A stretch of 64,000 nucleotides of DNA from Eledone cirrhosa (Eukaryota). The stretch is from positions 48,794,001-48,858,000 of the forward strand of contig OZ024740.1 of the NCBI GenBank assembly GCA_964016885.1, given 5' to 3'. A program made the translations under genes and the position numbers. Position 1 is the stretch's first letter. The number at the start of each line of letters is the position of its first letter. Below, piece by piece: positions 2,946 through 60,000 of this stretch. The notes beneath the pieces are model-generated. The model was not told the DNA's origin, ran no database searches, and was given only the letters and a program-made list of their open reading frames with translations.

Positions 2946-3095
2946 TATATATATGTATATATATATATATACATATGCAAGCGTGGAACACGGACGTTAA
3001 ACGTTGATGATGATGATGATGATATATACATTTTCCTCTCACTCCCAATTTTTAACAGACTTTAAATCTCATTTCATATTTTTTATCCATAACAT

Positions 3096-3163
3096 CTCTG
3101 TCTGACGACCGATCCAGACGTATATTATTATTGCCTGGGATCCAGAAACCTTTGGTAATGGAG
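3096..3163 (+). ncRNA. Minimal type I hammerhead ribozyme motif (Penelope-associated type)
   Basis: Stem I CUCUGU/AUGGAG; CUGACGA 3102-3108; imperfect stem II GAUCC/GGAUC; GAAA 3145-3148; stem III ACC-uuu-GGU; GUA cleavage triplet ending at 3157. Confidence 0.7.
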
Positions 3164-3203
3164 TTATATTTTGTGTTGTTCACTTTCTAATATATATATA
3201 TAT

Positions 3204-3595
3204 GCTACGCCGTATTTTGACTAAAGAAATTAAAGAAATTATTTAGCCTGATAGTGGGGTTAAGAACTCTCGGAGAAATGTAAAAAGATGAGTATTGACG
3301 TACATGGGAGTCAAACCCACATCTTTGGTTATCCGGACCACTGTGATACCATTTACACCAACACATCACCCGTCTTTTTCCATTCAAATTAGAAGCTATA
3401 AACTTAGCGACTGTAATGTCAAGTAAGAATATTTTCGAAACAGCGAGTGGGTTTGAAATTATTAGAAATGTAAGCTACGTCGAGGGTTCTTAACCCCACT
3501 ATCAGGCTAAATAATTTCTTTAGTCAAAATACGGCGTAGCTTACATTTCTAATAATTTCAAACCCACTCGCTGTTTCGAAAATATTCTTACTTGA
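3204..3595. mobile_element. Small element with split inverted repeats (A-tRNA-B-A'-B') in (TA)n
   Basis: A 3204-3272 is the reverse complement of 3481-3540; B 3419-3479 is the reverse complement of 3535-3595; TA runs lie on both sides. Confidence 0.75.
3296..3367 (-). pseudogene. Pseudo-tRNA (Pol III promoter unit) inside the split-repeat element
   Basis: Box A TGGTGTAAATGG; T-arm GTGGG-TTTGACT-CCCAT; acceptor stem GATGTGT/GTACGTC; degenerate anticodon loop; T5 run just downstream (3282-3286). Confidence 0.7.
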
Positions 3596-3601
3596 TATAT
3601 A

Positions 3602-5043
3602 TCTAATATATATCTAATATATATTTGTGAAATGGGCAGTGGTTGAAATTCAAATGTGCACGGTTAAATGGTAGTAGACGTGGACTGACATGGTAGTAGA
3701 CACGGACTGACATGAAAATTTACACACCTATGTAAAAAGTGCCAAGGAAGCAAATAGATGAGGTTTCAAATCTCTAACTTGAAAAATGTGGTTCCTGAGG
3801 CCCCAAAACTATCGCGTTCGGTGAGTTATTTCCCCGTTCTAATACTTTTGTCCTATTTACAATTTCATCATCCTTCTACATTTAACGATCATACAGTACC
3901 GTTTTATGAAATCGATTCTGCAGTACGGTCACTCTTTTCCATCAAAAGAAATAAAACCCTCGGCGATACTTGGTTTTAGTGTCCTAAATTATCATCATCG
4001 ACATTCAATTATTAGCTCCACCCACTACACGATACGTCACGAAGGTAAATGTTTCGAAAAAAATTTAAACTGTATATCGCAACAATATATTGTTTAAAGT
4101 AATTTTTTTTCTGTTGTTAAAAACTGTAAATCTGTTTTTAAAAAAATGTATTTCGCAGCAATTTTTTTTCTGTTAAAAACTGTAAATAAATATTCATGTA
4201 AAAATGAAGCATAGTGTTTCGGTTAAATACATTTTTTTAAAAACAGATTTACAGTTTTAAACAACAGAAAAAAATTTCTTTAAACAATATATTGTTGCGA
4301 TATACAGTTTAAAATGTTTTCGAAACATTTACCTTCGTGACGTATCGTGTGTTAAAAAAAAAAATGTATTTCGCAGCAATTTTTTTCTGTTAAAAACTGT
4401 AAATAAATATTCATGTAAAAATGAAGCATAGTGTTTCGGTTAAAAACTTAAAAACTGTAAATAAATATTCATGTAAAAATGAAGCATAGTTTTTGTGAAA
4501 AACTAAATAAATATTTATTTTGTTCAAAAAATAAATCAAAAATCTAATTTTCTCTGTTAATATTTTAATAAATATTTATTCTAAAAATTCAATGTTTTTT
4601 CGTGTAAAAATGAAGCATGTAAGAAAATGAACATGTACAAATCAAGCAGCAGCAGCTGATGACGTGTTGTGACGTATCGTGTAGTGGGTGGAGCTAATAA
4701 TTGAATGTCGATGATGATAATTTAGGACACTAAAACCAAGTATCGCCAAACTCTTAAATTGCGAAGAAGGGACGCGTGTTTTTATTTTAATTCTAATACA
4801 TGTTAACCACCACTAACAGTAAGTAGTATTTTTCAAATTGCATATCATCGACATTGCTATTTCGCTGTTAATAAACAACGTTTTTCACGTCGCTCCACTT
4901 CTCATTGTACGCCGTCCAGCCCCAAGTGCATATTTCTATTTTTTTTCCTGAAACTGCTTCTTTATAATAAATTTTCAATAATATTTTTCAAATTATTAAC
5001 TTAATAAAAAGTGGCTCCGGGTGCAACCGGGCTCAGCTGCTAG
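3602..5043 (+). mobile_element. Non-autonomous Helitron-like element with internal nested inverted repeats
   Basis: 5' A^TCTAATATATAT (start at 3602 or 3613); 3' GC-rich hairpin CCGGGTGCAACCGGG then CTAG^T at 5040-5044. Confidence 0.7.
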
Positions 5044-56550: not shown

Positions 56551-58393
56551 ACCTAATTTTGCTTTTGCCTATAAAATTTCTGATGAAATTATGCATATCT
56601 GAAATCTTATCCATGTTGAGCTTAATAAGAATAAGAGAAGGTTGCTTAGAAATTCTGCAGAGAGGAGTCTTAAATATGAAGGCACACTTCTCTTCATTTG
56701 TCAGTGTTTGACAAAGACCAGTATTAGTTCCAAAGGTATCATCTTTTCATTCAGCTCAGTTATTTACAATTGTTCAAATTGGAAAAAGAAACTTATGAGA
56801 TCCCTAAAAAAAGCAGTAAAAATATAAATGGCTAAAATAAAAGTAGAGACATTTTTCAAAATCTGTTCTGTCAAAAGGCCATATAGATCAATGTTGTGTT
56901 TTTATGAAAATAAAAGCTATTATTTCAAAATATACTGAATACTACAATAGACTAACCAGTAGTATGGCAATAATTTGTAATGTTGGATGAACTAGTGTAA
57001 TAATAGCTGGTTAATTAGCTTGTATTATGCTGTTCAAATGAGGGAGCCAAAATAGTAATCTTAAAAAGGAAGGATATATTGTCAAGAAAGAGACAGTTTG
57101 GTCACAACAGGAATGCTTTTGATTATAAAACTGCTCATTCATATTTGACAACAACAACATGTAAGAGTATAATTTATAATAAGAAAAAGAATGACAATGC
57201 AATTAAAGATGTTGAAAGTTAAAATAAGTTGACGTAAACCTTTGATAAAGAAAAAAACATACAATTTATATTGTTAAAAGAAAATTTCAAGTAATTTAAT
57301 CTAATATCAGAAACCATGACATCAGCAAACTATATCAATTGCCAATTAATGTTATGCTCTTCAACTGTGTAAATTTCTCTTGTTCTAACCTACTTTATTA
57401 CCTTGTTCAGAACATATGGCATGGTACAAGAAATGGGTTTTAAACTCAAGCCTTTTCAGGATCTCAAGCCTCTTCAGCTGAGGGACTTGCACTTTATTCA
57501 CTGAGCTATTGAAACTCCTCTTAATTTTCAAGCATGACATCTTACTTATAACTATAATTGAGATTCCCATGTTGTTTCTGAGGAGTCAAAGATTCTATGA
57601 ATATATATGTCGTAGCCTACCTAGGCAGGGCAAGACTTTTAACTATTTTAACACTCAATGCCATACTGATGTATATACTCAATTGATACAGAGTGCCGTA
57701 CACTTGTGTAGTACAATGATTTCCCGATATCTCTGTCCATATTTGAATTACAGTGTCAAATATATTATGTTGAATAATGAAAGAATAAGAGAGCAAAATT
57801 AGGTAATTAATCCATTGTTTTATGATTATTTTGGCTAAGCTAAAAATAATTCAGCTTTATTCACCAGTGCAAAGGTAAATCTAGTCCAGTATCCTTGAAA
57901 AGTGTGTCATATCCATTTCTCATGGGCAGGAGGTGCTTTTCAAGCTAAGATTCCTTCCATTTGTTGCGTTCTTTCATTGTCTCCTTTGTGAGTGTTAGCA
58001 ACTTGAAATCAATTCTCACCACCTCTTCTCAGCCAGCTATTCCTTGGTTTTCCTCTATTAAGTTTCCTTCCATTGGGATATTTTGGCACTTTTTCACTCA
58101 ATGATCATCATTCATACACATCACAGGTTCATGTCAATGCAGTCTTCTCTTTTCAACAGTATATCTGATGTTTTTATACCCAGCTTTCCTCTCAACTTAT
58201 TCATGCTTTGTGATGGTGATGATGATGGCGAGATAGTTTAACACAGATCTCAAACTCAAGGACACAAAAAGGGCCATTATGTCCTGGGGAAGAAGCACAG
58301 CAGACCAAAAGGTAGATGAGGTGTAGGGGGGGCGGGGTCCACCAGTTATATTGCTAATCTACAATACAGCTGACAGGCTGCTATTTTTTTGTC

Positions 58394-60000
58394 ATGAAAA
58401 TGAATACACTTGTGAGGCAATTACAGGAAAAGTACCTAGCTAAAAGTAAGCCACTCTACTTGGCATTTGTCGACCTTGAGAAAGCCTTTGACAGAGTTCC
58501 ACGTGCAGTAATCTGCTGGGCTCTTAGAAAACTAGGAGTAGATGAATGGCTTGTGAAAGCGGTACAAGCCATGTATAGGGGAGCAGTCAGCAAAGTTAGG
58601 ATTAGCAATGAGTATAGCGAGGAATTTAGCGTACAGGTTGGGGTCCACCAGGGCTCTGTTCTTAGCCCTCTCCTGTTCATCATAGTCCTGCAGGCAATAA
58701 CGGAGGAGTTTAAGACCGGATGCCCATGGGAACTCCTGTATGCTGATGACCTCGCACTCATAGCTGAATCTATGGTAGAACTAGAGAATAAATTCCAAAC
58801 CTGGAAGCAAGGACTAGAGAGAAAGGGCCTCAAAGTCAACATGACAAAGACTAAGGTCCTTGTAAGTAGACGAGAAAACAGAACCCAGATCCCCTCAGGG
58901 AAATGGCCTTGCTCAGTATGTAGGAAAGGTGTAGGTAGGAACTCCATTCTCTGCCCCAAATGCAAACAATGGGTACACAAGAGATGTAGCGGGATCTCAG
59001 GAAGCTTAATTAAGAATGTAGGATTCACATGCAGCAGCTGTGCTGAAACAGCAAGCAAACAGCCACAGGAAACAAGTACCACCAATCTCTGGGAGGGCCC
59101 TGTAGAAACAGTAGACAGCTTCTGCTACCTAGGTGACCGAATTAGCAACGGAGGTGGGTGCTCAGAAAGTACAATAACTAGGGTAAGAACGGGATGGAAG
59201 AAGTTTAGGGAACTACTACCACTGCTAACTGCAAAAGGCTTCTCCCTCAGAATGAAAGGCAGACTGTATGATGCGTGTATCCGAACAGCAATGTTACATG
59301 GTAGTGAGACCTGGGCGCTGAAGGTGGAAGACTTACGTAGATTAGAGAGAAACGAAGCCTGCATGCTCCGATGGATGTGTAACAGTAATATACGTGAACG
59401 ACAAAGCATAAAGGAATTGAGAGAGAGACTGAGCATAAGAGGAATCAAATGCTGCGTGCAGGAGAGGCGGTTACGCTGGTATGGACATGTGATGCGTATG
59501 AAGGATGACAGCTGCATAAAAAGGTGCAGAGCACTAGAAGTTGATGGAAACCGCGGAGTGGGGAGACCCAAGATGACTTGGGATGAGGTGATAAAAGCCG
59601 ACCTTACCCAACTACACCTCTCAAAGACAATGACACACGACCGTGACTTCTGGCGTCACGCAGTAATACAGGGTACCCGACCTCCCATGGGTACATGCTG
59701 AAGCATATAAACAATATGCCCCCACTCCCCCCACCGCAAGGTGGTCGTGGAGGTGCCACGGCAAAAAAGCACCCAGCCCACACTGTAAAGTGGACGTGTA
59801 GGCGCCACGAAAAAGCACCCAGCACTCACTGTAAATGAGGTTGGTGTTAGGAAGGGCATCCAGCTGTAGAAATCAAGCCAGATCAGTTCCTGTATGAGCA
59901 AGGCATGGTCAGCCGACCAGACACTGCCCACAACAGGACAACCCGTCTAACCCATGCTAGCGTGGAAGAACGGACGTAAAACGGTGATGATGATGATGAT
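58394..60000 (+). mobile_element. Young 5'-truncated RTE LINE with an uninterrupted 435-aa RT frame containing a PHD-like finger
   Basis: FVDLEKAFDRV, GVHQGSVLSP, YADD, C4HC3 finger and RLRWYGHV; stop at 59701; about 300-bp 3' UTR and (GAT)n tail. Confidence 0.95.

What the first reader, a model, noticed from the sequence alone, without database searches (positions are those of the whole stretch)
3204..3595. Pseudo-tRNA packaged in a split inverted-repeat element (A-tRNA-B-A'-B')
Seen: a ~115-bp unit B+A is intact on the minus strand (3595-3481). On the plus strand the same unit is split at GCTACG and permuted around a spacer, as if a circle had been opened inside the unit. The spacer carries a near-complete tRNA cloverleaf with boxes A and B and a T5 terminator. 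The ends sit in (TA)n with no LINE tail, TIR pair or TSD. The minus strand also reads agcCTGATAG-tggggttaagaaccctc-GAcGTAgct, a decayed hammerhead-like core. Known: inverted or permuted terminal repeats typify Penelope-like and DIRS-like elements, not ordinary SINEs. Inference: a Pol III-linked non-autonomous element mobilised by Penelope or tyrosine-recombinase machinery, possibly through a circular intermediate. I do not recognise this as a described class.
Basis: partly seen in the sequence, partly recalled or inferred. Interest (0 to 1): 0.72.

Follow-up and report, generated by a model that had tools for sequence, protein, structure and literature searches.

The report
tRNA-carrying passenger of Penelope retrotransposons
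This is one copy of a thousands-strong 271-base non-coding repeat that carries a tRNA look-alike but no recognisable self-cutting ribozyme and sits in TA repeats as back-to-back pairs with one longer end, so it is likely pasted in by the enzymes of Penelope-type jumping genes, likely from RNA made from its own tRNA-type promoter.

Summary
The repeats and the tRNA are real, but A-tRNA-B-A'-B' is only this copy's layout. The unit is a 271-bp monomer: 2,712 exact hits for one 20-mer, plus a 260-bp sister subfamily with 1,925. In 74 loci taken in genome order, 48 are head-to-head pairs and 110 of 123 arms end in (TA)n. 38 of 47 pairs have one 3' end about 37 nt longer than the other. That is the Penelope-like element (PLE) 'tail', also seen in 7 of 7 inspected pairs of this genome's own PLEs. 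62 of 123 arms break off at the tRNA T-arm, and 9 at its start. The tRNA domain is 98% identical between subfamilies against 78% elsewhere. DIRS is not supported. The partner family, the transcript and any circle are not shown. The scan noted this family before in this genome, and look-alikes in other animals (unchecked notes). My literature searches found no description; schistosome Sm-alpha is closest.

The parts
3204..3480 (-). Left arm: one full 271-bp monomer plus about 6 nt, read tRNA-sense; its 3' end at 3204 is a 'short' end
   Evidence: L001/L131
3296..3367 (-). tRNA-like cloverleaf with A box (about 3360-3349) and B box (3317-3307; C lost at 3313 in this copy); parent isotype not identified
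   Evidence: 38.4 bits
3276..3295 (-). Trailer with T5 run (3286-3282), a candidate Pol III terminator; predicted to pair with the leader
3368..3387 (-). Leader: inverted copy of the trailer, predicted 16-19-bp stalk under the tRNA
   Evidence: duplex -19.4 and -24.2 kcal/mol for the two consensuses
3204..3272 (-). Block A (A' in RNA sense): two small predicted hairpins, no hammerhead
3388..3480 (-). Spacer and block B of the monomer (B holds both priming regions)
3481..3595 (+). Right arm: 5'-truncated inverted copy (A'B'), 'long' 3' end; shares the 1-nt deletion of the left arm and lacks one 9-bp duplication
3556..3595 (+). About 40-nt 'tail' present on this arm only
   Evidence: short ends cluster at monomer 180-184, long ends at 216-224
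3186..3203 (.). Left (TA)n target, the tail of the neighbouring element; includes a candidate 12-bp target duplication (3186-3197)
3596..3624 (.). Right (TA)n with two copies of the candidate target duplication
3089..3190 (+). Neighbour, a separate insertion: short repeat with a canonical type I hammerhead (3096-3162); the finding landed in its (TA)n tail

Best explanation
The stretch is a head-to-head pair of copies of a 271-bp tRNA-containing, hammerhead-free non-coding repeat that is likely retrotransposed by the reverse transcriptase and GIY-YIG endonuclease of a Penelope-like element, from an RNA likely started by Pol III at its tRNA boxes. Shown: the monomer, thousands of copies, (TA)n at the 3' ends, 5' truncation, partial tandems, head-to-head pairs with one end about 37 nt longer, break-off hot spots at the T-arm and at the tRNA start, and a tRNA domain better conserved than the rest. 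Inferred steps: (1) Pol III starts at tRNA +1 and sometimes reads through the T5 run into A', B', the spacer and the next tRNA. (2) A PLE protein binds this RNA in trans and cuts both strands of a (TA)n tract. Both ends prime reverse transcription inside B', one at the distal site and one at the proximal site. (3) The RT usually stalls at the folded T-arm, so about four fifths of arms lose most of the tRNA and the promoter. The two cDNAs are joined 5'-to-5', often with an overlap or a short insert. (4) The minority that pass the tRNA stop at +1 or continue, by a template jump or round a circle, and so rebuild promoter-bearing tandems. The window's left arm is such a read-through copy.
For: Copy number: 2,712 exact hits of an A 20-mer and 535 of a tRNA 5'-half 20-mer, controls 0. 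The 260-bp sister subfamily has 1,925. Copies differ from consensus by 2.3% on average (30 monomers). Sample: 74 loci from the first 100 hits on contig C1 (83 fetched; 8 overlapping loci and 1 duplicated segment dropped). 48 of 74 are head-to-head. 110 of 123 arms have (TA)3 or more within 18 nt of the 3' end. Of 47 pairs, 38 are long+short, 2 long+long, 1 short+short and 6 unclassed; the median difference is 37 nt (p=1e-8 on the 41 classed pairs). Sister subfamily: 14 of 15 pairs have one end at 203-217 and the other at 125-170, and 33 of 39 arms end in TA. Published PLE hallmarks match: partial tandems, an inverted 5'-truncated copy, a 30-40-bp tail and (TA)n targets (PMC8557442, PMC3846280, passages). 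In vitro, a PLE cuts and extends both strands and starts at two internal sites that bound the tail (PMC11167929, passages). The genome holds 10,595 first-look GIY-YIG candidates and RT+GIY-YIG ORFs up to 938 aa. These PLEs end in (TA)n, and 7 of 7 inverted pairs read by eye are long+short. Single-insertion chimeras with hammerhead-bearing repeats occur at L029 and L166/L190. The two arms of a locus share private variants (35 in 4,500 positions; 0 of 2,000 shuffles reach this). tRNA role: 62 of 123 and 24 of 39 5' ends fall at the T-arm, whatever the 3' end class or pairing. 8 of 28 tRNA-containing arms end within 5 nt of +1. tRNA plus trailer are 93/95 identical between subfamilies against 138/178 elsewhere (p=2e-6).
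Against: No partner family was identified: the monomer shows no similarity above shuffles to 20 PLE 3' regions, and all 30 tail-anchored loci inspected were the repeat itself. Published non-autonomous PLEs generally resemble their partner at the 3' end (PMC8557442). A T5 run only 10 nt behind the tRNA should end most Pol III transcripts before the priming region (established Pol III biology, recalled). The leader-trailer stalk needs sequence upstream of +1, which a plain Pol III transcript lacks. The conserved tRNA domain could reflect recent module exchange between subfamilies rather than selection. There is no excess of substitutions at A58 in read-through copies (5 of 95, background 3.6%, p=0.26), and the modal break-off is 5-6 nt 3' of A58, so methylation as the cause of the stall is not shown. 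The locus sample comes from one contig and was selected on an A 20-mer.
Confidence: 0.8

Rival explanations
1. Same PLE partner, but the tRNA is a processing signal as well as or instead of a promoter. RNase P would cut multimeric transcripts at each tRNA start, giving unit-length RNA that is circularised and copied by rolling-circle reverse transcription, the tRNA replacing the retrozyme hammerhead.
For: Tandem units within one arm share private variants (23 in 3,464 positions against 0.0010 expected; 0 of 2,000 shuffles; 33 arms from 37 hand-picked loci), so tandems are rebuilt from a monomer. The junction sequence is invariant. 18 of 123 arms run upstream of a tRNA start. The leader-trailer stalk keeps or improves its pairing at all three leader differences between subfamilies. 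Retrozymes of similar size form circles (PMC7229834, passages).
Against: A template jump between tRNA copies of a linear t-A'-B'-spacer-t transcript explains the same data. A long stalk may hinder RNase P (recalled). The break-off hot spot at +1 points to linear 5' ends. RNase P ends are not the ends that RtcB joins (recalled).
Confidence: 0.25
2. An ordinary LINE-dependent tRNA SINE whose inversions come from twin priming and whose (TA)n ends are tails or targets.
For: tRNA head with A and B boxes, 5' truncation, and some arms beginning at +1. LINE RT fragments are present in the window.
Against: Twin priming inverts without duplicating (recalled), yet here both arms carry the same A'B' sequence with their own 3' ends. 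The one-sided 37-nt tail, the internal priming sites and the tandems that put fixed sequence upstream of the tRNA are PLE traits.
Confidence: 0.07
3. A DIRS/tyrosine-recombinase passenger with split inverted terminal repeats, integrated from a DNA circle, or a rolling-circle DNA element.
For: The window's own layout resembles split repeats, and two of the best-scoring hits (L002, L007) look similar.
Against: No fixed termini: 3' ends fall in two clusters, 5' ends and inversion points vary, and most arms lack the tRNA. Among the 74 ordered loci only the window has this layout. Stalls at an RNA fold point to reverse transcription of an RNA.
Confidence: 0.02

Closest known systems
Schistosome Sm-alpha / Sj-alpha SINE-like repeats (seen second-hand: passages of PMC6765202 and PMC2770079; the 1998 primary paper was not read)
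   Same: tRNA-derived (Sm-alpha from tRNA-Gln), apparently Pol III transcribed, short, high copy, often in tandems where an upstream unit transcribes the next.
   Different: Sm-alpha carries a hammerhead that cuts the multimer; this element has none. The head-to-head pairs, one-sided tail and T-arm break-off are not mentioned in the passages read.
Animal non-LTR retrozymes (PMC7229834, passages; bioRxiv 10.64898/2026.07.22.740005, parts 1-2 of 5)
   Same: 170-400-nt non-coding monomers in tandem and dispersed copies, proposed to be moved by PLEs; chimeras with a local hammerhead-bearing tandem repeat (L190).
   Different: Defined by a type I hammerhead, absent here. Related to pLTRs, which was not found here. 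Circles are shown for them and untested here.
Non-autonomous PLEs such as MRC1, and EN+ PLE insertions in general (PMC8557442, PMC3846280, PMC11167929; passages)
   Same: Partial tandems, inverted 5'-truncated copy, 30-40-bp tail on one end, (TA)n target.
   Different: Carries a tRNA module with Pol III boxes, and shows no detected 3' similarity to an autonomous family.
Cassandra, Helenus and Ajax (PMC10886601, passages)
   Same: Non-autonomous retroelements with a small-RNA-derived Pol III promoter that ride a non-LINE partner.
   Different: Those are LTR elements (TRIMs). This one has no LTRs and shows PLE-type ends. The paper's main text does not mention Penelope.

Membership tests
PLE-mobilised non-autonomous element | Partial tandems and 5' truncation | tested here: met
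   arms up to about 2.2 monomers
PLE-mobilised non-autonomous element | Inverted 5'-truncated copy, head-to-head | tested here: met
   48 of 74 loci; 15 pairs in 24 sister loci
PLE-mobilised non-autonomous element | 30-40-bp tail on one end only | tested here: met
   38 of 47 pairs, median 37 nt; 14 of 15 in the sister subfamily
PLE-mobilised non-autonomous element | AT-rich or (TA)n target | tested here: met
   110 of 123 arms; 33 of 39
PLE-mobilised non-autonomous element | EN+ PLEs with the same insertion pattern in the genome | tested here: met
PLE-mobilised non-autonomous element | 3' similarity to an autonomous partner (usual, not universal) | tested here: inconclusive
   None above shuffles against 20 PLE 3' regions; this is a small part of the genome's PLE families, and N-terminal-EN clades were not sampled
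PLE-mobilised non-autonomous element | Mobilisation in trans by PLE protein | not testable with these tools
   needs an in vitro or cell assay
Non-LTR retrozyme / Sm-alpha | Type I hammerhead in each unit | tested here: not met
   No strict match on either strand of either consensus; with one core deviation allowed, only AT-rich antisense matches in one subfamily; the same search finds hammerheads in neighbouring families. No Rfam ribozyme
Non-LTR retrozyme / Sm-alpha | Short tandem monomer of 170-400 nt | tested here: met
   271 and 260 nt
Non-LTR retrozyme / Sm-alpha | Circular RNA | not testable with these tools
   needs RNA
tRNA-derived SINE (LINE-dependent) | tRNA head with A and B boxes | tested here: met
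tRNA-derived SINE (LINE-dependent) | Element begins at the tRNA head and ends at one 3' tail | tested here: not met
   Fixed sequence lies upstream of the tRNA in 18 of 123 arms; two internal 3' end classes
tRNA-derived SINE (LINE-dependent) | 3' end shared with a LINE | not tested
   only PLE 3' regions and tail-anchored loci were compared
DIRS-type element | Fixed inverted or split terminal repeats | tested here: not met
   ends and inversion points vary

The most novel reading that the evidence does not exclude
A class of SINE-like parasites of Penelope elements in which a stalked tRNA mimic replaces the hammerhead: it is both the Pol III promoter and the RNase P cut site that makes unit-length, circularisable RNA, and the same fold blocks reverse transcription so that four in five offspring are born without a promoter.
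Probability: 0.22. Interest if true: 0.82.

Novelty: new variant of a known kind. Interest (0 to 1): 0.6.

Why it matters
Pol III-promoter passengers are described for LINEs (SINEs) and for LTR elements (Cassandra, Helenus, Ajax). For Penelope-like elements the described passengers are hammerhead retrozymes or pLTR derivatives. A hammerhead-free tRNA passenger would fill that gap and show that PLE proteins accept RNA with no detected likeness to their own ends. The family is also a small, young, high-copy reporter of PLE mechanism. The coupling of one long and one short end in 38 of 41 classed pairs says that the two start sites seen in vitro are likely each used once per insertion. The sharp T-arm break-off gives a direct test of whether tRNA folding or modification limits retrotransposition. 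The 271-nt RNA is a ready substrate for the published in vitro PLE assay.

Tried and rejected
Expression: no RNA holder was listed; three contig runs of one study hold the stretch. Laying two of them added nothing independent. Hammerhead or other ribozyme in the unit: none in Rfam. My first descriptor missed known cases through non-greedy matching, so it was rewritten exhaustively. A twister-like look of the A' hairpin was a recalled resemblance with no Rfam support. Partner search: an 18-nt match to one PLE family's 3' region (E=3.8) was within shuffle range. A shared 7-mer in the tail is not kept in the sister subfamily, so it was rejected. m1A58 misincorporation was not found (duplicate removal among the 95 copies was imperfect). 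The claim in earlier notes that break-off depends on A58 by subfamily was not tested. Parent tRNA isotype: the 16 tRNA hits gave at most 45 of 72 identical positions, so it is not identified. The PLE clade was not assigned by phylogeny. My first consensus carried one duplicated base (272 nt), so monomer coordinates above 165 are one too high; this was corrected. Literature: nine searches found no description of a hammerhead-free tRNA passenger of PLEs. Subscription journals, Repbase/Dfam entries and supplements were not seen and may hold such a family under a SINE name. The host species was not determined; a cephalopod repeat paper (PMC13282606, part 1 of 3) was read as context only.

Full report
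OBSERVATION. The inverted repeats are as described, and a tRNA-like cloverleaf lies on the minus strand at 3367-3296 (Rfam 38.4 bits; ARAGORN none) with a T5 run 10 nt behind it. A search of the own genome (3.0 Gb, host not determined) gave 2,882 first-look candidates, of which 40 were scored. Taking 30 loci apart (26 distinct) shows a monomer repeated head-to-tail. Thirty monomers differ from their consensus by 2.3% on average, and the length is 271 nt. The window is one full monomer on the minus strand (3480-3204) joined head-to-head to a truncated arm on the plus strand (3481-3595). 'B+A' is the tandem junction, and the 'split' is where one arm ends. The hammerhead-like string depends on this copy's junction and occurs nowhere else among L001-L308. 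An exhaustive type I descriptor finds no strict match in either subfamily consensus, but it finds a canonical hammerhead at 3096-3162 in a neighbouring repeat whose (TA)n tail received the insertion. A 12-bp direct repeat on both sides may be a target duplication.

THE FAMILY. A 20-mer in block A has 2,712 exact hits and one in the tRNA 5' half has 535, controls 0, so about four fifths of arms lack the tRNA's promoter half. I took the first 100 A hits on contig C1 (83 loci fetched, 74 kept after dropping 8 overlapping loci and 1 duplicated segment). 48 of 74 are head-to-head pairs and 26 are single. Read in the tRNA sense, 110 of 123 arms of 30 nt or more end within 18 nt of (TA)3 or more. The 3' ends fall in two clusters inside block B. 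Of 47 pairs, 38 combine a long and a short end (median difference 37 nt, range 31-66), 2 are long+long, 1 is short+short and 6 have an unclassed end (p=1e-8). The 5' ends vary, but 62 of 123 lie at monomer positions 55-70 (the T-arm), 9 lie at the tRNA start, and 18 run on upstream. The T-arm peak holds for long and short arms and for single and paired arms, and it does not follow AT dinucleotide or palindrome density. All 30 tRNA-anchored hits lie inside the unit, and 8 of 28 distinct arms end within 5 nt of +1. A 260-nt sister subfamily (1,925 hits) repeats the pattern: 14 of 15 pairs long+short, 33 of 39 arms in TA, 24 of 39 5' ends at 57-72. Between subfamilies the tRNA and trailer are 93/95 identical and the rest 138/178 (p=2e-6). 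The leader upstream of the tRNA is an inverted copy of the trailer, predicted to form a 16-19-bp stalk, and the three leader differences keep or improve the pairing. The two arms of a locus share private variants more than shuffled pairs do (35 in 4,500; 0 of 2,000 shuffles), as do tandem units within an arm (23 in 3,464; 0 of 2,000; hand-picked loci).

THE MACHINERY. Partial tandems, an inverted 5'-truncated copy, a 30-40-bp tail on one end and (TA)n targets are published PLE hallmarks (PMC8557442 and PMC3846280, passages). A purified PLE cuts and extends both strands of AT-rich DNA and starts at two internal RNA sites that bound the tail (PMC11167929, passages). This genome has 10,595 first-look GIY-YIG candidates, and all 150 scored pass the cut-off. 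[quoted passage not shown] They carry minimal hammerheads and end in (TA)n, and 7 of 7 inverted pairs read by eye have one long and one short end. The tRNA element forms single-insertion chimeras with hammerhead-bearing repeats (L029; L166/L190). Against this reading, no similarity above shuffles was found to 20 PLE 3' regions, and 30 tail-anchored loci were all the repeat itself, so the partner is unnamed.

MECHANISM. Most likely a PLE protein acts in trans on an RNA started by Pol III at the tRNA, primes from both ends of a cut (TA)n tract at the two sites in B', usually stalls at the T-arm, and joins the two cDNAs 5'-to-5'. The end pattern is shown. The protein, the polymerase and the stall are inferred. 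The T5 run demands read-through, and the rebuilding of tandems from a monomer demands either a template jump between tRNA copies or a circle; the DNA cannot tell these apart. Methylation at A58 is a possible cause of the stall, but read-through copies show no excess of substitutions there (5 of 95, p=0.26), and the modal end is 5-6 nt away.

COMPARISON. It works like a non-autonomous PLE and meets the insertion tests for one. It fails the hammerhead test for retrozymes (PMC7229834, passages; bioRxiv 10.64898/2026.07.22.740005, parts 1-2 of 5) and for Sm-alpha (second-hand, PMC6765202 and PMC2770079, passages). It fails the head-and-tail test for ordinary SINEs and the fixed-termini test for DIRS. 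Helenus, Ajax and Cassandra are the LTR counterpart (PMC10886601, passages). Nine literature searches found no description; repeat databases, subscription journals and supplements were not seen. Earlier unchecked notes of this scan describe the same 271- and 259/260-bp families in this genome, and 352-411-bp look-alikes in other animals. They agree with my reading but are not independent support, and I could not check the other genomes.

VERDICT. A real, young, abundant element, read correctly as PLE-linked but wrongly in its architecture and hammerhead. It is a new variant of a known kind; interest 0.6.

Noticed in passing
window 3089-3190 (+): Short repeat with a canonical type I hammerhead (3096-3162) ending in (TA)n; other copies form head-to-head pairs (L298).
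   Followed up: partly
window 42301 (-): Another type I hammerhead match with a palindromic stem III.
   Followed up: no
window 3960-4550: AT-rich region with a 96-nt inverted repeat (4027-4122/4255-4350) and 217- and 58-bp direct repeats; may be another head-to-head element.
   Followed up: no
window 58358-59698 (+); L003:2293-3228: Open frame with RT and a PHD-finger match, probably a LINE fragment.
   Followed up: no
L235, L237-L245 (e.g. L243:1188-2858): A second, unrelated tRNA-containing repeat of about 1.7 kb: a well-formed tRNA about 310 nt inside a fixed (TA)-flanked end that starts with a hairpin, and an inverted arm whose end lies about 500 nt further in. It made up 10 of 16 tRNA hits.
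   Followed up: partly
L029:1824-1885; L031-L055: Abundant (1,414 first-look candidates) TA-flanked repeat with a hammerhead whose U4 is replaced by A; it pairs head-to-head with itself, with a third family and with the tRNA element.
   Followed up: partly
L087:7503-8419; L190:5955-6549: 459-bp tandem repeat with a canonical type I hammerhead in each unit, a typical non-LTR retrozyme; fused to the tRNA element at the T-arm break-off in L190.
   Followed up: partly
L027:1878 onward: An arm broken off at the T-arm continues into the T-arm of a different tRNA-like repeat, which looks like a template switch at box B.
   Followed up: no
L086-L105: Several PLE families whose hammerheads have a U3-A8 core or a U-U mismatch at the base of stem II, and some with a decayed GAAA.
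   Followed up: no
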